This document shows, piece after piece, positions 27,181 to 36,625 of a DNA stretch of 64,000 bases. The notes under the pieces are model-generated. The model was not told the DNA's origin and made no database searches. It worked only from the letters and a program-made list of their open reading frames with translations. The first letter of the stretch is position 1, and every line of letters begins with the position of its first letter. The DNA is from Trichodelitschia bisporula (lineage: Eukaryota): contig ML996690.1 of NCBI GenBank assembly GCA_010356995.1, forward strand, positions 1,148,217 through 1,212,216. Direction: 5' to 3'. The position numbers and the translations under genes were made by a program.

Positions 27181-28304
27181 TCAACTATCCGCATCCACCG
27201 GCCGCTTCCGGTTTCCAATGTCCAAGTCGGCAAACCTAGGCCGCGCAAGGGCGATATTCACCCGGGCAGCATTGAATACATGTTCGGACGGCGGAATCGT
27301 GACGGCCAAGTTGGTGTTTTCCGTCAACCTCGTGATAAAAAACATGAAACGGCCAGTTTTGATCTGGAGCTCGGCAAAATTGGCGCTGCCGGCTGGGATG
27401 CCCGTGTGCTTACTATCACCGGTTAGTAAGGACCTACGACGGAGGAAGAAAACCTTACGCCAATGACTGCTTGTGCGTCTTCAAGATGCTTGAGATGCGC
27501 TCGAAGCGGTCAATGTACGGGTTGCTGGCCTCCACTCCCCGCGTAACATGCGTCACCATCAAACAGGTCGTCCGCTCGTACAGGATCAGCTCCCGCGCGT
27601 CAATGACCTCCGCCAGCATCTCCAGCAGATTTTCGATCGTGCTCGCGTTCGGGATGAGAAAGTAGATGACCTGCGTCCACGCCTTGTACAGGCTCTGGTC
27701 CCAGATACTCGTTGGGTAGAACTCGACAGTGTCTCGAAAGCCCTCGGAGGCAGACCGGATATACTCCGTGCGCTCCTCGAACGTCTGGGCTCGTCGACTG
27801 GCTTGGACGAGGTCCATCTTGTGGATGAGGCAGAAGACCTTTGCGCTCGGGGACCATTCTTGCAGGGCACGGATGATGTTGCTGTAGTTGACGACATCGG
27901 TATGAGGCTCTCGGGATTCGATGTCAAAGACAAATATGAGGACGGCCACGCTGCTGAATACGTGCGACCGTTGGTGAGTGAGGTAGTTCTCGACAAAGCC
28001 ATCCTGACTGGGGATCGTCAGAACGGGCACAAACAACCTCTAGGTTTCAAGGCGGCTCCATGCCTCTGGAGACTAACATTGCCATGAAACCGAGGACATC
28101 TTACCCTCCACAGTCCCACAGATTCAGGGTCAGGTTTCCCATGAACTTGATATTGCTATGCTCGACATCAATGGTCGCTGCTAGCCTGCGTACATCTTTG
28201 GCGACGTAGTTGCTGAAAACGATGGACCTCATCGACGATTTCCCCGCGCCACTTTTGCCCATCAGCAGCACCTTACGCTGCTTCTGGCGTTTGACCGAAC
28301 TCAT
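27181..28304 (-). CDS. GTR1: RagA/B-family GTPase Gtr1 (TORC1 signalling), 3 exons
   Basis: '[23 protein letters not shown]', 'ATIDVEHS', '[10 protein letters not shown]', 'HKMDL', '[12 protein letters not shown]' and '[10 protein letters not shown]'. Confidence 0.95.
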
Positions 28305-28531
28305 GACGAAGGAGTTGTTAGAAGGAATAAATTGATGACTACGAATGGCTGATGTTCCAGGACGACAAGCCCCCCCAGCCCCAATGCCAAGCATGCGGTG
28401 ATTGATGTCCGGAGCGGAACAACAATTTTTCGAGACGGCGCGTCGTGAAGCTCTGATGAAGGGTGGAAGCGTAATGGTACCACCATCTTTATTCAACTTC
28501 CCTACCTCTCTACTGCGAATTACTATCTCCC

Positions 28532-29374
28532 ATGGCGTCCCCCGCTGGCGACCATAACTCTTCTACCGACAGCCCCGCCCGTAGCGGCGCCGACGACAAA
28601 CACAACGGGCTGGGCGCCGAAGCGCAAAAAACTCCCCTCGACAGACAATCACCCGCTCCCGAACAAACACCCCAGGACAAAGTCGCCGCCCTGCCTTCCG
28701 AACCACCATTACCCAACGAAGAAGCACCACCCCCACTACCGGACGAAGCACCGCCACTGCCGGCCGAAGAGCCGCCGGATGACGGCTGGGAACCACTGTG
28801 GGATCCAAACGCGGGGGCATTCTACTTTTTCAACAGGTTCACCAAGGCATCACAGTGGGAGAACCCACGAATTCCGGAGGCGACCGCTGCGGTCGCCACA
28901 CCAGCCGTGGATGTCGGACCCCATGACCCGATAGCAGCCGAAGGATCCGGGCCTAGTGACGGCACGTCCTCGGAGCTCAAGCGCGGTCCGGCTGGAGGCT
29001 ACAACCCCGCGATCCACGGCGACTACGACCCCAATGCGGACTACGCGATTGAGGCGCATCCGGAAGACGAGGAGCGTACTGCAGCCCAGCAGGCCGATCC
29101 GAACGCCATCTACTCCTCCATTGGCGCGTTTAACCGCTTTACAGGCCGGTGGCAGGACGCGACCGTGAATCCGGACACGCACAACGATGAGAATAAGACG
29201 AAACGGCAGATGAGCGCATACTTTGACGTGGATGCTGCGGCCAATAGCCACGACGGACGCAGTCTCAAGGCCGAGCGGCAGGGCAAGAAGCTCAGTAAGG
29301 AGGAGGTTCGAGCATTCCGTGAGAAGCGGAGAGCGAAGAAGGAGGAGAAGCGGCGAGCATGGCTGCGAGACTAG
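28532..29374 (+). CDS. WW-domain protein with basic C-terminus
   Basis: WW domain '[30 protein letters not shown]'. Conserved-looking '[17 protein letters not shown]' and '[12 protein letters not shown]'. Single exon, divergent from GTR1 by ~230 bp. Confidence 0.85.
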
Positions 29375-31396
29375 ACCGTAGTGTAGATGGCGTTAGCTTT
29401 TGGTGTACGTTGTATTTTAGCCTGCATCTGTTAGTATGGGTACGGAGTTCTGCGTGTTATTACTTGCTGCGGAGCATGTTGCCTGTGGTCTAGGTTTCGG
29501 GGCAAAGCAATTTCGTACCGTCAACGTCCGCTGGTGAAATCAGTGACATAAGATATGGGGGGAGGGTTTGTGTGAGTGGAGGGTTCGCATAGTAGAGCAT
29601 TTACTAAGCGCCAGCTGCTGAAGGGAACCTTGTAGCCACGTTTCGTCCAGGGCAGAGTGGCTGTGCCGATGAGGACTGTGGCCACACAGTTTCAGCATCC
29701 AATCCTGGTCAGACAGGATACTCTGTTGTGTTCAATTTCTCGGTAACGGGTCATCCTAGGGTCAGTGACGACAACATCGGGTCTTGACGGCGGTTCGCTG
29801 TATCCCCGGCGGATAGCACATCATCCACTTCAAGGAATGGTTCGAACCCCGTCTGTTGTGACGTTCATTCGGCTCCTTAGATTGATCCTCAGAGATACGA
29901 CCTGGAATGATGTCTTGCGAAGCATCCCGTGCTGACACCTGCAAAAGGTAGAATCTGAAGCAGCATGTCAGCCAGGCAACCTGTCTTTTCACCACCGCAC
30001 GCCCGAGATGAACAGAGCGCCTCGGGAACAAATAGGTCTGTAAACCCGATTGGGCCCCAAGTCCACAGCACCAACACCACAAATCCGAGACGGCACCGGC
30101 CACGTATGTAGGTTGAGTGTCGCCCAACAACCACGGAATCTCTGTCATCGGTGCCATCCAGGAATTCTTCAAGCGGCCTTTGTCCCTGCAGATCTCCAGC
30201 TTGTGCTCCCATTTGTTAGCGCAGCCTTACCCATCAGATAAGCACTGCCATGGCTCTTGGCCGCGCAAAGCCAAGACGGTTAAAAAGCTTGACCATAATA
30301 TCGATATGAAGGGCGCTCGACTTCCGACATCATGCCATGCCATCATTGTGAATCTGCTTTGAGTATGCTTTGGAGGTGAAATGAAGAGCCATGACGTCTC
30401 ACAATATCGTGTTCGCATGTCTACTTGCCCATCAGAGAGACCATGGGTCTTAAAGTGCCGCGACCAGCATCGTTGCTGACCTCCGAGGCACTTTCCGCTC
30501 CCTAGTCTAGGGTTTCATCCCCTTCAACAACCCGCCATTTCACACCGTCGCCCTGCCAGAGTCGGCTCCGCACATTGAGCCACGTTGACCAAACACACGC
30601 CCGCGCATCGGGGAAGTGGTCAGGGCAAACAGCTCATAGGCCGCACCGCTCCTATCAGACGCAACCCCGCTCCCAACGCGGCAACACAGTCCCCATGCAT
30701 TTTGCATGCACTTGGCGCATACCAGCCTTCAGCCCCGCCGCAGATTGGTTGGTCTTCTGACGGCTGGTATGTGGCGCTCGTTACAAGGGCCGCGGTGTTT
30801 GTGTCAGTCAGACTGCCCTTTGCCAGCCCACTGCTGCCAGCTTGCTTGCTGCTAGGGCCGCGCAATCCGCGATTGTGAGGGTTGTGCCACGATGCGAGGC
30901 CTGGACCTGCGATATTGCGGGGAGACAGGGACAGGCCGCTAGCCCCAATGCCCCGCGGGGGAGGTGGTATCCCGCGGCACAGTGGGGCGCAACGACAGGA
31001 TAAGGGCCAACTGCGCCACGGATGGGGCCCGATGCGGGTGCATATTCACCGTCAATTGAGCTGCGCGAATTATGGGCGCAGGGCTAGATGAGGCATGACT
31101 TCCAGTTGCCTGGGTGGGCTGGCCGCATGCTATGGCTGTGCTGCTCCGATAGGCTTTTGCTGCAATATGCGCAGCCAGGGGGGTCTTCTCAGCTGAGAAG
31201 GGAGGAACGCCCAAGTGGCCCGCGTTCCTGCCGTCGGTTGGCTGTCCTACGTCCGAGGGACGTATTAAAGCTGCTGGCCCTCGTTCCTGCTGCCGCTGCT
31301 CTCAGTTTCCCCGCCTCTCCGCCCTCAAAATTATCGACTGCCACCAGTATCGCAAGCCTCACTGACTTTTATCTCAACACCTCACCTTAACGTCAT

Positions 31397-31452
31397 GTAA
31401 GGACTCCCAGCTGCCAATTGATTGTTCTTCGCTAATGACTATCGCTCTACAG
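31397..31452 (+). other. Putative 5'UTR intron of the CAAX-peptide gene
   Basis: Donor GTAAGG (31397), branch point GCTAAT (31431-31436) and acceptor CTACAG (ending 31452). Length is 56 bp and it ends 5 nt before the ATG. Confidence 0.75.
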
Positions 31453-31457
31453 TCAAA

Positions 31458-31580
31458 ATGCCTGGCAGCACCTCCTCCAGCATCGCCTCGGTCGTCAAGC
31501 CGAAGCCGATCAAGACCACGTGCGGCGAAGAATGCGATTGCTGCGGTATGGATGAGTCGTGCTGGTGCGTTGTCATGTAA
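31458..31580 (+). CDS. 40-aa Cys-rich peptide ending in a CAAX box (MPGSTSSSIASVVKPKPIKTTCGEECDCCGMDESCWCVVM); candidate prenylated peptide or pheromone-like precursor
   Basis: Strong fungal start context TCAAA-ATG directly after an intron acceptor. Codons end mostly in C or G, like neighbouring genes. Six Cys, and C-terminal CVVM-TAA. Below the size cut-off of the ORF track. Confidence 0.8.
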   Translation: MPGSTSSSIASVVKPKPIKTTCGEECDCCGMDESCWCVVM

Positions 31581-32055
31581 AGCCGCCGGAGGGACTGGCC
31601 AAACGAGGATGGAGCTATGGAGTTGGCGTCGTCGCACCGTGGAAGCAAACTGGTCGTGGCATGCCTGGGTCGTGATTGCTGCTCGTTCTGTTTACTCTTG
31701 AGCAAATCAAATCAACCTTTAGTTCTATACCACATCGCGTGTGCCAAAGTGAATCTAGCAGTGTAAACATTGATTGTCGTTCCTGTTCAAGCTTGGCTCT
31801 CGTCATGCTGCCGCGGAAGCGCGGGAGAGCTCGGTAACGCCATGTATTGGCGTCTTGGCCGACTTCATAAACATCCGCAGTGCCCGGTCACTGAGAGTTA
31901 TTGCGGTGCCATAGCACTATTTGCGTGAGGATTTCTGCCCGTCCCCTCGTGAAGATGTGAACGTGTCCCCATGCCAAGGCAACACCCTGATCCGTATCTG
32001 AGGCCAGCTGCACTGCCAAAGAGTTCACAACTGCCTCACAGGACGCGTGCCTTGT

Positions 32056-32583
32056 TCATCCAACCTTCTTACCATTCTCAATGATCATGTATTCATCGCT
32101 TGCTGTTCAGCATCGAAGGCCACTCAGGGTCGGATCTTGGGACTTACCCGACCATCATCCGCATCTGGCTCTCGTCCATGAAGTTGTCGTGGTCACTGGA
32201 CAGCAGCTTCGACTCGGGATCGTACAGGAACTGGGCAAAAGATTTGTAGTCCGGGAAATAAAAGGTGCAGATGGCATCGTAGTCCAAAAGAGGGGCTTTG
32301 CCCTTCAAGATATCTTGCATCGTGGTTCGATCTCGCTGTAGATGGTACGTCTGCGACGGGGTTTCAGTAGCCGTACTACGGGAGAGACATTCCAGGAGCA
32401 TACGAGACTGTAGCTAATGATATTATGCTTCAATAAAACAGGTGCGGCTCTTTGAGCGTGATGGTTGTTGTAATGCTCAATGAAGTCCTCATCGCTAATG
32501 TCCTCGCGCTTCTTCACGAGGATGGTGACCTTGGTAACCTTGCGGAAGCCGGCTGTGCCCGGATAGCCAGCCTCGAGGACCAT
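32056..32583 (-). CDS. EthD-family (dimeric alpha/beta barrel) protein, 3 exons
   Basis: 'KVTILVKKREDISDEDFIEHYNNHHA', 'LDYDAICTFYF' and 'LSSDHDNFMD'. Two GT..AG introns give the end 'MMVG|DEYMIIENGKKVG*'. Confidence 0.85.
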
Positions 32584-32996
32584 TTCGGCAGTGCTTCAAT
32601 AGTAGTAAATGGATGTTGACCACCAGGGTAGACAGGCTGAGGCTCAATACTGGTGTTTTCTGGACCATCAGGGTCAGTAACGACGGACGAACATGAGGGG
32701 GTGGTCCGTGCGCTTCCCCACAACATCCCATCCGTGCCGGGATATTATCGGCCACAATGTTGGGCTCATAGCGCATCTTCAATGCGTTTGTTGGCGATAG
32801 TCACTGAACAGCCCATAAGAGACACGTCTTGTCCTTTGATTGCTAGTGGACTCACCTCACTTTGTTCCTCTGCGTCTATACGTCCGCTTCCCACATCCAC
32901 CCCACACACCCCATCTTTGAGCCACCGTTTGGGTCACACGCGCTCTTTGGCTGGCGGGGCGCATTGTACCAACGCTACTCCCACCAGTGCCGTTGC

Positions 32997-35900
32997 ATGA
33001 TACTCTCGTCTATAGGAAGGAAGCGCGCCCTTGGCCATGTTTCCAGAACCAAATCGTTGAACCCTTCTCAAACCCTTTTACGGAGCTCGGACGTTCCCTC
33101 CCGTTGCCACATTTCGTGCTCGGCGGCGCAGGCTTCCTCTTGCCTGCGGCTCACTCAGCCTGCGATTCACCGGCACCGCAGCCTGCAGTTGCCTGATCTA
33201 CACCAACGGCCCTACATAGCCTTACGATCTGCACATACCTTTCCAACTACAACTATGGACGAACATTACAATTCTCTGCCCTCGCTGGAGAGACTGACAA
33301 TTGGAGACATGGAACGACCTGCGCTGGACGACCGCTCCTACAAAGTCATCACGCTGTCCAACAAACTGGAGGCACTTCTCATACGCGATGCTGACACGGA
33401 TAAGGCGAGCGCGGCGCTGGACGTGAATGTTGGGAGTTTCAGTGATGCGAAAGATCTGCCAGGCACGGCGCATGCGGTGGAGCATCTTCTTTTCATGGGA
33501 ACTGAAAAGGTGGGTTCTCTCTGAGACACTCCCTCTCTAGCCTCGTCCTAACACTGCGCAGTACCCAAAAGAGAACGAGTACCACCAGTACCTCACCTCG
33601 CATTCCGGACACTCGAACGCCTACACGGCCGGCACTTCGACAAACTACTACTTTGAAGTCGCGGCGTCATCCAGCAAGACATCTACCCCCACACCAGCAG
33701 ATGCGGAAGCAACGAACGACTCCCCACTCTATGGAGCGCTGGACAGATTTGCGCAGTTCTTCATTAAGCCGCTTTTCCTTGAGGATACACTTGACCGGGA
33801 GTTGCGTGCCGTGGATTCGGAGAACAAGAAGAACCTTCAGAGCGACAACTGGCGTCTGCACCAGCTGCACAAATCCCTTTCCAACCCCGCACATCCGTAT
33901 TGCCACTTTTCGACTGGTAACTACCAGACGCTCCACGATGAACCGCTGGCGCGAGGTGTGCGCATTCGCGATGAGTTCATCAAGTTTTACGACACGCATT
34001 ATTCTGCGAACCGTATGAAGCTTGTCGTCCTGGGCCGGGAGAGCCTGGAGCAGCTGGAAGCCTGGGTTCAAGAGCTCTTCGCCCCTGTTAAGAACAAGGA
34101 TCTGCCACGGAACCGATGGGACGGTGTGCCTCTCTACACCGACAAAGAGCTCTTAACTCAGCTGTTCGCGAAGCCGGTCTGCGACATGAAGACACTGGAT
34201 ATCTACTTTCCCTATCCGGATGAGGAACAGTACTACGAGTCGCAGCCTAGTCATTACCTTGGCCATTTGATTGGATATGAGGGACCGGGGAGCATCCTCG
34301 CGTATCTCAAGGGCAAGGGTTGGGTGACCGGTCTGGGGGCTGGGGCCTCGTCCCTCTGTCCTGGCTCCTCATACTACAGCATCACGATAAAGCTCACAGA
34401 GGAGGGCATCAAGCACTATCAGGAGATCACCGAGGTCGTGTTCCAGTACATTGCCATGTTGAGGGAAGCGCCGCCTCAGCAACAGTATCATGAAGAACTT
34501 AAGAAGATGAGCGAAGTCAACTTCCGCTTCAAGCAGAAGAGCCCGGCGAGCAAGACTACCAGTCGTCTTAGTGCTGTGATGCAGCGCCCGTACCCGCGGG
34601 ACCGCCTCTTGAGTGGGCCCAGCCTGGTGAGGAAGTTTGAACCGGAGGCTATCAAGAAGGGCCTGGAGTATCTGTCGCCAGACAACTTTCGGATCATCAT
34701 CACCAGCCAAGACTTCCCGGGTGACTGGGATCAAAAGGAGAAGTGGTACGGGACGGAGTATCGCTATGAGCGTATTCCAGATGAATTTTTGCAGCGCATC
34801 GTGAAGGCCGCCAACGCCGGTTCCAAAGAACGCGTGCCAGAGCTCCATCTACCGCATTCGAATGAGTTCATTCCAACCCGGCTGGAGGTCGAGAAGCGTG
34901 AAGTCGAGAAGCCGCTGAAAGCTCCCAAGCTTTTGAGGAATGATGATTTGGTGCGGGTCTGGTTCAAGAAGGATGATCAGTTCTGGGTCCCCAAGGCCAA
35001 TCTTTACGTCACTCTGCGAACGCCCCACGTTTCAACCACCCCCCGAAATTCGATGCTCACACAGCTGTATCATGCGTTGGTGCAAGATGCTCTTAATGAG
35101 TATGCATATGATGCTGAGGTTGCTGGTCTGGACTACTATATTTCCAGCAACTCTACGGGCCTCTCTGTCCATTTGGTGGGCTACAACGATAAGATGGCAG
35201 TGTTGCTCGAGAAGGTCATGCGGTCCATGAAGGAACTCGAGGTTCGGGACGACCGCTTCGTCGTGATCAAAGAGCGCCTTTTGCGAACCTACAAGAACTG
35301 GGAGTTTCAGCTGCCGTATTACCAAGTCGGTAACTATAGTAGGTGGCTGACGTCTGAGGCCGGATGGATTAACGAGCAATACCTCGCCGAGTTGCAACAC
35401 ATCTCTGCCGAGGAAGTCAGGTCGTTTTTCCCGCAACTGATCCACCAAATGCACATTGAGACTTTCGCTCATGGCAACGTTCACCGGGAAGACGCTCTTC
35501 GCTTCACCGATCTTGTCGAGTCCATTCTGCGCCCGCGCAAGTACCCTCCGTCGCAATGGCGTGTTCAACGCTCACTTATTTTGCCTCCGGGGAGCAACTT
35601 TGTTTACGAGCGCTTCCTCAAAGACCCAGCCAACATCAACCACTGCATTGAGTACAATCTCTACGTTGGCGACTACTGCGACCGTGTTCTCAAAGCCAAA
35701 GCCACCCTTTTTGGTCAAATCGCGGACGAACCGTGTTTCGACCAGCTCCGCACAAAGGAACAGCTTGGCTATGTTGTCTTCAGTGGAGTGCGGATGGGCT
35801 CTGCTAGCATACGCTGGCGCGTCCTCGTGCAGAGTGAGAAGCATCCGAAGTATCTTGAGGGGCGCATCGACGCGTTCCTCGCGGCTCTGGGGAAGCAGCT

Positions 35901-36625
35901 GAAGGAGATGACGCCGGAAAAGTTCCAGAAGCACAAGACGAGCCTGATCAACAAGCATCTGGAGCGCGACAAGAACCTGTCTCAGGAGTCTGGGCGGCTT
36001 TGGGGCCACATCACCTGCGAGTACTTCGACTTTGAGATTCGTAAGTTGCCACCTGATGGCGTTCTTGGCGGTTACTGATAGATTCGCAGAGGATACCAAT
36101 GTTTGCCATATCGAACAGACGACCCAGGAAGAAATCGTCCAGTTCTTCGAACAGTACATCTCGCCCGAGTCTTCTGAGCGCGCCAAGTTGTCCGTCCATT
36201 TGCTCGCCCAGGGCCTGCCCCATACCATCGCCGTGGACGACAAGTTACCCAAGCCCATCCCAGAGCTCCTCAACCTTCTCACCAAGTTCTTCGACACACA
36301 AGGTATCAAGGTGGACTCTGAGCTGCTGAAGCAGCGCCTTCACAGTGTGAACGCGGAGGGCCAGAATCTGGAGCCAATGGCACGGGCCGTTCTTTCGTAC
36401 CTTGTCGAAGACGCTAAGGTGCCCGAGGAGCAGGCGAAGGATGTGATGACGCAAGCTCTGGCGCTGATACCGGAGGCGAAGGAAGAGAACTTGACTGAAG
36501 GGACAGCCAAGACTGCAGTTCCAATTACAGACGTTCGCTCCTTCAAAGCGAGTCTCCCGGTCAGCCACGGGCCACAGCCAGTGAAGGATCTGAGCGAGTT
36601 TGAAGACATTGAAGCAAAGCTATAG
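32997..36625 (+). CDS. STE23: Insulysin / a-factor-processing metallopeptidase (M16A); second in-frame ATG at 33255; introns approx. 33510-33561 and 36041-36090
   Basis: Inverted zinc motif 'HAVEHLLFMGTEK|YPKENEY', plus 'RAVDSENKKNLQSD', 'HLIGYEGPGSIL', 'WFKKDDQFWVPK' and 'FDQLRTKEQLGYVVFSG'. Confidence 0.93.

What the first reader, a model, noticed from the sequence alone, without database searches (positions are those of the whole stretch)
31458..31580. Unannotated 40-aa gene: a pheromone-like CAAX peptide carrying a metallothionein-like Cys cluster
Seen in sequence: ORF MPGSTSSSIASVVKPKPIKTTCGEECDCCGMDESCWCVVM*, with a strong start context (TCAAAATG), a canonical intron ending 5 nt upstream, and coding-like codon usage, in an otherwise gene-free 2.6-kb gap. 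Established: C-terminal CVVM is a CaaX prenylation signal. Ascomycete a-factor-like precursors (mfa-1/ppg2 type, as I recall) are short, begin MPS/T-rich and end in CaaX such as CVVM, but have essentially only the CaaX cysteine. Here five more Cys and four acidic residues form C-x3-C-x-C-C-x5-C-x-C. Inference: this may be an undescribed class of farnesylated micropeptide, either a disulfide- or metal-constrained lipopeptide signal, a membrane-anchored metal/redox sensor, or a multiply S-acylated peptide.
Basis: partly seen in the sequence, partly recalled or inferred. Interest (0 to 1): 0.88.

Follow-up and report, generated by a model that had tools for sequence, protein, structure and literature searches.

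The report
Cysteine-rich CaaX peptide gene, putative a-factor family
This is a real, spliced and conserved fungal gene for a 40-residue cysteine-rich peptide with a lipid-attachment tail, and it belongs to a peptide family already proposed, but not proven, to be the missing "a-factor" mating pheromone of another fungal class.

Summary
The ORF at 31458-31580 (+) is exactly as described. RNA-derived contigs from one sample cover it, and one contig removes the predicted 56-nt GT..AG intron 31397-31452.

It is a real protein-coding gene. phmmer found 14 true relatives among 15 hits in 1.84 billion representatives. Another 44 metagenome loci carry it, and all 44 have the stop directly after the CaaX box. 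pN/pS is 0.31 overall and 0.125 in the Cys-rich half.

Named members are Dothideomycete "hypothetical proteins" from Macrophomina, Phyllosticta, Pyrenophora, Alternaria, Plenodomus, Ascochyta and Stemphylium. The window itself is Trichodelitschia bisporula, where the peptide is not in the protein collection.

The class is not undescribed. Wilson et al. 2023 (PMC10569646) published the same design as the Leotiomycete "putative a-factor": an S/T-rich start, an ...SS(T)ISSIVKP motif, a Cys cluster and C[TV]VM. They call its function unclear.

The match to that family is by eye only, and I ran no statistical test. No paper I found extends it to Dothideomycetes. Two earlier notes of this scan reached the same verdict on other genomes.

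Verdict: a new member of a known, uncharacterised kind. Whether it is a pheromone or a membrane or metal peptide stays open.

The parts
31263..31270 (+). TATA-like box TATTAAAG, 195 nt upstream of the ATG; probable core promoter
   Evidence: Sequence. Of 19 promoters from the window and relatives, 13 have a TATA-type box 195-252 nt before their ATG. The function is inferred.
30341..31396 (+). Transcribed upstream region or first (non-coding) exon. The 3' end at the splice donor (31396) is firm. The 5' end is uncertain, and the main start is probably near 31290-31300.
   Evidence: X1 contig runs 30341-31396 and then joins 31453. X2 contig covers 30288-31383. The region holds 18 ATGs, but none in the last 200 nt of the spliced leader.
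31397..31452 (+). 5'-UTR intron, 56 nt, GTAAGG...CTAAT...CAG
   Evidence: Skipped in one X1 contig, with matching loose ends in X2. It removes two upstream ATGs. A donor+branch+acceptor candidate sits in the same place in 18 of 28 distinct loci, against 52 of 925 random control positions.
31458..31508 (+). N-terminal module, residues 1-17 (MPGSTSSSIASVVKPKP): S/T-rich, conserved M1, S7, K14, P15, P17
   Evidence: Alignments A2 and A3. pN/pS is 0.549. The same ...SS(T)ISSIVKP motif appears in the Leotiomycete sequences printed, matched by eye.
31509..31520 (+). Variable hinge, residues 18-21 (IKTT). This is the only place with length variation; possible processing site (inferred).
   Evidence: Alignments.
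31521..31565 (+). Cys/acidic module, residues 22-36 (CGEECDCCGMDESCW). Invariant C22, G23, E24, C26, C28, C29, G30, E33, C35.
   Evidence: pN/pS from the first Cys to the C-terminus (this module plus the CaaX box) is 0.125. 10 of 15 relatives have a seventh Cys where the window has M31.
31566..31577 (+). CaaX box CVVM (predicted farnesylation signal)
   Evidence: C37 is invariant and the last residue is M in 14 of 15 (Q in one). Prenylation itself is inferred from established CaaX biochemistry and was not tested.
31578..31580 (+). Stop codon TAA directly after the CaaX box
   Evidence: A stop is in the same place in 44 of 44 related loci.
31581..32098 (+). 3' UTR of unknown length; overlaps the 3' end of the convergent EthD-domain gene in the RNA contigs
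   Evidence: Contigs run on from the ORF into the minus-strand EthD gene. Contigs cannot place a 3' end.

Best explanation
The locus is a two-exon gene of Trichodelitschia bisporula. Its 5'-UTR intron is spliced out just before a 40-codon ORF.

The product is a precursor of the cysteine-rich CaaX micropeptide family. This family is found across Dothideomycetes and was published for Leotiomycetes as the 'putative a-factor'.

Shown here: transcription, splicing, purifying selection on the peptide, a fixed stop after CaaX, and family-wide invariant Cys, Gly and Glu positions.

Inferred from established CaaX biochemistry: C37 is farnesylated (X = M), VVM is removed by Ste24/Rce1-type proteases, and the new C-terminus is methylated by a Ste14-type enzyme.

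Inferred from the conservation pattern: the acidic Cys module of about 16-19 residues is the functional part. The S/T-rich N-terminal module may be a recognition or pro-region, with cleavage in the variable hinge.

I consider an exported a-factor-type lipopeptide signal (a Ste3 ligand, or a derived non-mating signal) the single most likely role. In that case the Cys cluster would be held by disulfides or a metal.

My odds: real prenylated-peptide gene of this family about 0.85; an a-factor-type extracellular signal about 0.4.
For: 1. Transcribed and spliced.

2. Coding.
- Variable columns by codon position are 19, 14 and 34 of 38.
- pN/pS is 0.308.
- 11 pairs have identical peptides but different DNA.
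- The stop follows CaaX in 44 of 44 loci.
- The -3 base is A in 30 of 30 distinct loci.

3. Family. 14 true relatives among 15 phmmer hits. The profile search listed 9 proteins at E <= 10 (8 at E <= 6e-8, and P0026 at E 0.08), all with the motif. There are 44 metagenome loci. Named members come from two further Dothideomycete orders, Botryosphaeriales and Pleosporales (the order assignments are my recall).

4. Same design as the published Leotiomycete family: S/T-rich start...SS(T)ISSIVKP, a Cys cluster, C[TV]VM.

5. Same ends as Sordariomycete a-factor precursors (MPST... and ...YCVVM), printed.

6. An aromatic residue sits directly before the CaaX Cys in 13 of 15 members (W 11, Y 2).

7. According to Wilson et al., no a-factor gene is known in filamentous ascomycetes outside Sordariomycetes apart from their candidate.

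8. The next gene downstream is the Ste23 (a-pheromone-processing peptidase) orthologue. This is weak evidence, because none of the 44 related loci has a match to it within the up to 4 kb of flank held on each side.

9. Exact Ste12-type TGAAACA sites are more frequent upstream: 5 in 13.1 kb against 6 in 71.2 kb of control. They occur in only 4 of 19 loci.
Against: 1. The link to the Leotiomycete family rests on motif and architecture comparison by eye. phmmer and the profile search returned no Leotiomycete protein. I ran no direct alignment statistic, because those sequences exist only in a paper's supplement.

2. The GY motif used by Wilson et al. is absent in 15 of 15 members, and the Cys spacing differs between the two classes.

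3. Against a classical pheromone:
[quoted passage not shown] - The authors themselves say several lines of evidence argue against a mating role.

4. The Cys module is nearly invariant across orders (pN/pS 0.125), which fits species recognition poorly.

5. No a-factor sequence in the sets I read carries six or seven conserved cysteines plus invariant acidic residues.

6. The RNA evidence is one sample of one study, with unknown culture conditions.

7. Farnesylation, processing, export and receptor binding are all untested.
Confidence: 0.45

Rival explanations
1. It is not a pheromone. It is an intracellular micropeptide tethered to the cytosolic face of membranes by a farnesyl group on C37, plus S-acylation of nearby cysteines. 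The Cys/Glu cluster would bind Cu(I) or Zn(II), or sense redox state, like a membrane-anchored metallothionein. Under this reading the 'putative a-factor' label of the Leotiomycete family would be wrong.
For: - Six or seven cysteines and two glutamates are invariant or nearly so across orders. pN/pS is 0.125 in this half.
- C35-x-C37-aaX and the CC pair resemble the palmitoyl-Cys positions upstream of the CaaX in Ras-type tails (recalled, not tested).
- AlphaFold finds no autonomous fold: pLDDT 52.9 and no secondary structure. That would fit a peptide that needs metal or lipid.
- The paper reports Leotiomycete homologues expressed independently of mating type and highly in sclerotia.
Against: - No metallothionein family matched any of 15 members, even at E <= 10, and none appeared in the PDB profile search.
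- A conserved W/Y and five acidic residues are not what I recall of fungal metallothioneins.
- Cu- and Zn-responsive promoter motifs are not enriched. Ace1-type sites run at 0.84 per kb against 0.73 per kb in control, and no Zap1 sites were found.
- This reading does not explain the N-terminal S/T-rich module, which is conserved between classes and shares the MP.S start of known a-factor precursors.
Confidence: 0.3
2. It is a secreted disulfide-knotted defence or toxin-like peptide, with the Cys spacing forming a cystine-knot-like core.
For: The only weak database resemblance is to spider ctenitoxins, which share the spacing C-x3-C-x-CCGC-x3-C-x-C. The PDB chain 8bwb_A scored E 0.1. Pfam D_CNTX matched 2 of 15 members, best E 0.022.
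Against: - The scores are not significant.
- By eye, the 21 residues before the first Cys are S/T/K/P-rich and show no hydrophobic signal-peptide-like stretch.
- A C-terminal CaaX marks cytosolic prenylation, not the secretory pathway (established knowledge).
- AlphaFold predicts no fold.
Confidence: 0.04
3. It is a chance ORF, or merely a regulatory upstream ORF in a non-coding transcript, and the peptide has no function.
For: Short ORFs are common: the window has 371 ATG-ORFs of 30-100 aa. Transcription extends about 1 kb upstream without a long ORF.
Against: - Strong synonymous bias.
- 44 of 44 stops in register.
- Invariant residues across at least three orders.
- A at -3 in 30 of 30 loci, and splicing that clears upstream ATGs from the leader.
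Confidence: 0.02

Closest known systems
Leotiomycete 'putative a-factor pheromone' (Botrytis cinerea BCIN_13g03330 and homologues; Wilson, Coetzee, Wingfield & Wingfield 2023, PLoS One, PMC10569646)
   Same: - A short precursor ending in C[TVI]VM followed by a stop.
- An S/T-rich N-terminal part with an almost identical ...SS(T)ISSIVKP stretch.
- A variable spacer, then a cluster of five or six cysteines with conserved acidic residues before the CaaX.
- Mostly unannotated, and expressed.
(Searches compared.)
   Different: - The Leotiomycete forms are longer (45-64 aa), mostly through an extra N-terminal MCTS...LVNRNG extension before the shared motif.
- Their Cys module is KC.EC-DG.E-CCC-IPIP-C. 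The module here is CGE.C.CCG(C).E.C.C.
- Their GY motif is absent here (0 of 15).
- Neither sequence search linked the two groups, so homology rests on architecture and motifs compared by eye.
Sordariomycete a-factor-type precursors (N. crassa mfa-1, S. macrospora ppg2, P. anserina; sequences printed from the paper's S2 file)
   Same: An MP(S/A)(T/S) start, an S/T-rich leader, a K-V-P / V-K-P element, an aromatic residue directly before the CaaX Cys, and a CVVM end.
   Different: Those are 21-24 aa with a single Cys (the CaaX one). They have experimentally supported mating roles in some species (established knowledge, not tested here). This peptide is 40 aa with a conserved 6-7-Cys acidic module.
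S. cerevisiae a-factor (MFA1/MFA2) biogenesis pathway
   Same: Precursor size class of 36-40 aa (recalled), a C-terminal CaaX, and the predicted pathway of farnesylation, AAX removal, methylation and N-terminal trimming. The Ste23 orthologue lies next door in this genome.
   Different: There is no sequence similarity beyond the CaaX. The yeast mature peptide has no extra cysteines. Processing, Ste6 export and Ste3 binding are untested here.
Fungal copper metallothioneins (for example the N. crassa 7-Cys Cu-MT; recalled)
   Same: Small size and 6-7 cysteines in C-x-C and CC arrangements within about 16 residues.
   Different: No HMM match: 0 of 15 members. This peptide has a conserved aromatic residue, many acidic residues, a CaaX tail and a conserved non-Cys N-terminal module.
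Ras-type hypervariable tails with palmitoyl-Cys upstream of the CaaX (H-Ras, yeast Ras2; recalled)
   Same: A Cys two residues before the CaaX Cys (C35-W-C37) and a further CC pair, which could serve as a second lipidation signal.
   Different: There is no G domain; this is a free-standing micropeptide. The likeness is in how it might work, not in membership.

Membership tests
Cys-rich CaaX peptide family of Leotiomycetes ('putative a-factor', BCIN_13g03330 type) | Short ORF (<=100 aa) ending in CaaX/CpaX with the stop directly after it | tested here: met
   40 aa, CVVM followed by a stop. The stop is in register in 44 of 44 related loci.
Cys-rich CaaX peptide family of Leotiomycetes ('putative a-factor', BCIN_13g03330 type) | S/T-rich N-terminal region with the ...SS(T)ISSIVKP stretch | tested here: met
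   The consensus here is MPAS.ASSISSIVKPKP. The Leotiomycete sequences printed mostly carry PGSAASSTISSIVKP. The comparison was by eye, with no score.
Cys-rich CaaX peptide family of Leotiomycetes ('putative a-factor', BCIN_13g03330 type) | Cluster of cysteines with acidic residues upstream of the CaaX | tested here: met
   Present in both, but the spacing differs.
Cys-rich CaaX peptide family of Leotiomycetes ('putative a-factor', BCIN_13g03330 type) | GY motif near the C-terminus (87 of the Leotiomycete sequences, per the paper) | tested here: not met
   0 of 15 members of A2 have GY. Instead, W or Y sits directly before the CaaX Cys in 13 of 15. The motif is not universal in Leotiomycetes either.
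Cys-rich CaaX peptide family of Leotiomycetes ('putative a-factor', BCIN_13g03330 type) | Statistically significant sequence or profile similarity | tested here: inconclusive
   phmmer over 1.84 billion representatives and a word-indexed profile search returned only Dothideomycete-type members. I did not run a direct profile-profile test, because the Leotiomycete sequences are available only in a paper's supplement.
a-factor-type lipopeptide mating pheromone (functional class) | C-terminal CaaX on a short precursor | tested here: met
a-factor-type lipopeptide mating pheromone (functional class) | Farnesylated, carboxymethylated, N-terminally trimmed mature peptide exported by a Ste6-type transporter | not testable with these tools
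   Needs mass spectrometry and genetics.
a-factor-type lipopeptide mating pheromone (functional class) | Mating-type- or mating-dependent expression; activates the Ste3-type receptor | not testable with these tools
   Only one RNA sample of unknown condition is available. In Leotiomycetes the homologue was reported as not mating-type dependent. TGAAACA sites are modestly enriched but occur in 4 of 19 promoters.
Fungal metallothioneins | Match to a metallothionein profile | tested here: not met
   0 of 15 members matched at E <= 10. There is no metallothionein in the PDB profile search at E <= 10.
Fungal metallothioneins | Metal-thiolate cluster formation | not testable with these tools
   Needs metal titration of the peptide.
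Cystine-knot spider ctenitoxins (Pfam D_CNTX) | Significant profile match and a secretory signal peptide | tested here: not met
   Best E 0.022 (2 of 15 members) and E 0.1. By eye, no hydrophobic signal-peptide-like stretch in the 40-aa ORF.

The most novel reading that the evidence does not exclude
The family is not a mating pheromone at all. Instead it is a previously unrecognised kind of cell component found across several classes of filamentous ascomycetes.

It would be a free-standing micropeptide of about 40 residues, anchored to membranes by a farnesyl group plus acylated cysteines. Its invariant Cys/Glu cluster would bind a metal or sense redox state.

If so, the published 'putative a-factor' label would be wrong, and the true a-factor of Dothideomycetes and Leotiomycetes would still be missing.
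Probability: 0.3. Interest if true: 0.75.

Novelty: new member of a known kind. Interest (0 to 1): 0.5.

Why it matters
The a-factor-type pheromone gene has been missing from filamentous ascomycetes outside the Sordariomycetes. The only published candidate is the Leotiomycete family of 2023.

This window shows that a spliced, strongly conserved relative exists in Trichodelitschia and in many Dothideomycetes, including major crop pathogens such as Pyrenophora, Alternaria, Plenodomus, Ascochyta, Macrophomina and Phyllosticta. There it is annotated as hypothetical, mis-named or mis-modelled.

That gives the field a concrete gene to knock out and a peptide to synthesise, which would settle whether the family is a pheromone.

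The near-invariance of six or seven cysteines and two glutamates is unlike any a-factor sequence I read. Either answer would therefore be informative: a structurally constrained lipopeptide pheromone, or a lipid-anchored metal or redox micropeptide.

Tried and rejected
- Whole genome: none is held, so I could not look for paralogs, Ste3 or MAT genes. Within the window, only one locus fits the Cys-cluster pattern.
- RNA runs: no listed holder is on record as RNA. The two runs found are one sample and one study. Contig depths were not used to rank expression.
- Synteny: tblastn of all window ORFs of at least 50 aa in 22-42 kb against the 44 loci hit nothing besides the peptide locus itself. That includes three antisense hits at the same place. 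The Ste23, EthD and WW-domain neighbours are therefore not conserved within the flank held (up to 4 kb on each side).
Only contig-length coincidences remain.
- Pfam, PDB sequences and the ESM Atlas gave no family. The best Atlas score was 0.81, a 56-aa Ascomycota cluster, which is below the level that counts.
- AlphaFold on 27 unaltered sequences gave pLDDT 52.9. I ran no fold search because the model is too poor.
- Promoter motifs for Ste12, HMG-box, Ace1, Mac1, Zap1, STRE, Mcm1 and AP-1: nothing was decisive.
- Rfam: nothing at gathering score in 7 loci. In window 28000-34000 there was only a sub-threshold match to a bacterial sRNA family (osmY, 29.2 bits against 46.9), which I take as chance.
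- Literature: I found no paper on PTRG_09598. Bcin13g03330 appears only in Wilson et al.. No paper combined CaaX, metallothionein, farnesylated and fungal. The listings show no extension of the family to Dothideomycetes and no functional test. These were search listings only, and subscription journals are not covered.
- Complex prediction: not used. No partner is in hand, and an enzyme-substrate pair is a poor use of the job.

Full report
**1. The observation**

Window 31458-31580 (+) translates to MPGSTSSSIASVVKPKPIKTTCGEECDCCGMDESCWCVVM followed by a stop. The start context is TCAAAATG. The Cys pattern C-x3-C-x-C-C-x5-C-x-C-VVM is as stated. The cluster has five acidic residues, not four.

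The ORF alone is not remarkable. The window holds 371 ATG-ORFs of 30-100 aa, and 2 of them end in a CaaX-like box. Pfam finds nothing in the peptide.

**2. Transcription and splicing**

Two small public runs hold the stretch. They come from one sample and one study, and the tool only guesses that they are RNA. When laid on 29000-35000, their contigs skip three introns of the neighbouring genes, so they derive from RNA:
- 32098>32148 and 32350>32404 on the minus strand
- 33507>33560 on the plus strand

One X1 contig skips exactly 31397-31452 (56 nt, GT..AG on the plus strand). Loose ends in X2 show the same junction.

Splicing removes the two upstream ATGs that lie within 200 nt of the start. 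The spliced leader has none in its last 200 nt, and an in-frame stop lies 12 codons upstream.

Contigs also cover 30288/30341-31396, so the 'gene-free gap' is transcribed. A TATA-like box at 31263-31270 (-195) suggests that the main start is near 31290-31300, but contigs cannot show starts. Of the 19 promoters examined (the window plus 18 relatives), 13 have a TATA-type box 195-252 nt before their ATG.

**3. It is a conserved protein-coding gene**

Family size and membership:
- phmmer against 1.84 billion representative proteins gave 15 hits at E <= 0.001. Of these, 14 carry the same motif, and one 2155-aa protein is spurious.
- A scan of metagenome contigs gave 44 loci.
- In all 44, a stop codon directly follows the CaaX box. 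One locus (L029) has an internal stop.

Codon-level test on 29 distinct coding sequences (30 distinct, with L029 left out):
- Variable columns by codon position are 19, 14 and 34 of 38.
- Pooled pN/pS is 0.308: 0.549 in the N-terminal part and 0.125 from the first Cys to the C-terminus.
- 11 pairs encode identical peptides with 1-8 synonymous differences.

Other conserved features:
- The -3 base is A in 30 of 30 distinct loci.
- An intron candidate (donor, branch and acceptor) ends within 45 nt of the ATG in 18 of 28 distinct loci. The control rate is 52 of 925 random positions.
- Invariant residues in 27 unaltered sequences are M1, S7, K14, P15, P17, C22, G23, E24, C26, C28, C29, G30, E33, S34, C35, C37 and M40.
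- The only length-variable segment is the hinge between KP.P and the first Cys.
- 10 of 15 members have a seventh Cys where the window has M31.

**4. Who has it**

Named members:
- Macrophomina phaseolina
- Phyllosticta citricarpa, Pyrenophora tritici-repentis (PTRG_09598), P. teres, P. seminiperda, Plenodomus biglobosus and Ascochyta lentis
- Phyllosticta citribraziliensis
- Alternaria species and Stemphylium lycopersici

All are annotated as hypothetical, mis-named or mis-modelled:
- 'Gluconate 5-dehydrogenase', where the model is fused to, or named after, the next gene.
- The 66-aa Macrophomina model, which runs past the CaaX.

The window itself is Trichodelitschia bisporula (Phaeotrichales, Dothideomycetes). 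The long exon at 33562-36075 is 100% identical to that species' annotated Ste23. The peptide's exact sequence is not in the 15-billion-protein collection, which fits 'unannotated'.

A divergent subgroup (M[NK]STTSS...CGCV[VI]M) appears in soil metagenomes. A Ste23 protein that appears to lie on the same contig is closest to Tothia and Venturia, at about 73%. That subgroup is therefore probably also Dothideomycete.

**5. What it is**

Wilson et al. 2023 (PMC10569646) described a 'putative a-factor' in at least 111 of the Leotiomycete species they studied. I read sections 9, 21-23 and 27, passages elsewhere, and supplementary files S2, S3 and S10. The prototype is B. cinerea BCIN_13g03330. It is 45-64 aa long, has an S/T-rich N-terminus and mostly ends in CTVM.

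The sequences printed share three things with this family:
- the stretch PGS-AASS-(T)ISSIVKP, against MP[AG]S.ASSISSIVKP here
- a variable spacer
- a Cys-rich acidic module before the CaaX (KC.EC-DG.E-CCC-IPIP-C there, CGE.C.CCG(C).E.C.C here)

The shortest Leotiomycete form, from Antarctomyces, even starts with MPPS and contains CGE. I judge these to be one superfamily, at about 0.85.

This is a comparison by eye. The two sequence searches did not bridge the classes. The paper's GY motif is absent here (0 of 15). I did not run a direct profile comparison, because those sequences are only in a supplement.

The ends also match Sordariomycete a-factor precursors (MPST......YCVVM). W or Y sits directly before the CaaX Cys in 13 of 15 members.

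**6. How it probably works**

Inferred from established CaaX biochemistry: C37 is farnesylated, VVM is removed and the new C-terminus is methylated.

Inferred from the selection pattern: the C-terminal Cys/acidic module is the functional part, the hinge is a likely processing site, and the N-terminal module is a recognition or pro-region.

Whether the product leaves the cell is open.
- For an a-factor-type signal (about 0.4): the precursor design, the shared ends, the absence of any other candidate in this class, and weakly the Ste23 gene next door.
- Against: the paper's finding that the homologue is expressed independently of mating type and most highly in sclerotia, together with the authors' own doubts, and the near-invariance of the Cys module across orders.
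- The main rival (about 0.3) is a membrane-tethered, possibly multiply acylated, metal- or redox-active micropeptide. It has no metallothionein profile match (0 of 15) and no enrichment of Cu or Zn promoter motifs.

AlphaFold gives no fold, with pLDDT 52.9. This is neutral between the two readings.

A spider cystine-knot toxin shares the Cys spacing, but at non-significant scores. By eye, the ORF has no hydrophobic signal-peptide-like stretch.

**7. Novelty**

The kind is in print for Leotiomycetes, but it has not been functionally characterised. My searches found no paper extending it to Dothideomycetes and none testing it. These were listings only, and subscription journals are not covered. 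Two earlier notes of this scan reached the same family verdict on other genomes. I had reached the same verdict independently.

Verdict: a new member of a known kind, of moderate interest.

Noticed in passing
window 32997-36078 (+), intron 33508-33559: The next gene downstream on the same strand is the Ste23 orthologue. Its ORF region starts about 1.4 kb after the peptide's stop, and its Pfam-matched part starts about 1.7 kb after. It is an insulysin-type M16 peptidase annotated as 'a-pheromone processing metallopeptidase', 100% identical to T. bisporula's.

None of the 44 related loci has a match to it within the flank held (up to 4 kb on each side). However, two Ste23-type proteins list longest-contig lengths equal to contigs that carry family members: 109,755 (L028's contig) and 64,335 (P0011's contig, in a cluster named for Rasamsonia emersonii).

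This hints at loose linkage, and perhaps at a Eurotiomycete member. Neither is verified.
   Followed up: partly
window 30288-31396: A GC-rich stretch (0.59-0.64, against about 0.50-0.55 around it) upstream of the peptide gene is covered by RNA contigs but has no ORF over 100 aa. It could be a long alternative leader or a separate non-coding transcript.
   Followed up: no
window 32144-32660 (-): An EthD-domain gene lies convergent to the peptide gene. Its introns at 32099-32147 and 32351-32403 are confirmed by RNA contigs. The contigs run through both genes, so their 3' ends probably overlap.
   Followed up: partly
L022:3280-3620, L034:1850-2190, L037:3320-3660, L043:330-670, L015:3300-3640, L010:2830-3170, L032:3330-3670, L018:1-260: In Pleosporales-like relatives, the region about 690-400 nt upstream of the ATG holds short invariant blocks at fixed spacing: GCT[TG]AGCCAC twice, GTGAGGCA and TGAGGCGGTGC, and CCAAT twice. 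The spacers between them vary. This looks like a conserved cis-regulatory module, not an RNA gene (no Rfam match in the 7 of these loci scanned). The window has only degenerate traces, such as TGAGGCA at -369.
   Followed up: partly
L029:117-233: One metagenome copy has an in-frame stop at codon 16 (KP*P) in an otherwise intact gene. It is either a pseudogene or a sequencing error.
   Followed up: no
proteins P0004, P0007, P0008, P0009, P0017: Public gene models of this family are often wrong:
- The Macrophomina model reads past the CaaX (66 aa).
- The Stemphylium model is fused to the downstream short-chain dehydrogenase, and a 39-aa Pyrenophora peptide is named 'gluconate 5-dehydrogenase'.
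- The Phyllosticta models carry long unconserved N-terminal extensions and end in CVVQ or run on after CVA.
   Followed up: partly
window 31521-31571: The Cys spacing C-x3-C-x-CCGC-x3-C-x-C of the family matches a stretch of the spider toxin omega-ctenitoxin-Pn4a (PDB 8bwb_A), at E 0.1. I take this as chance or convergence.
   Followed up: yes
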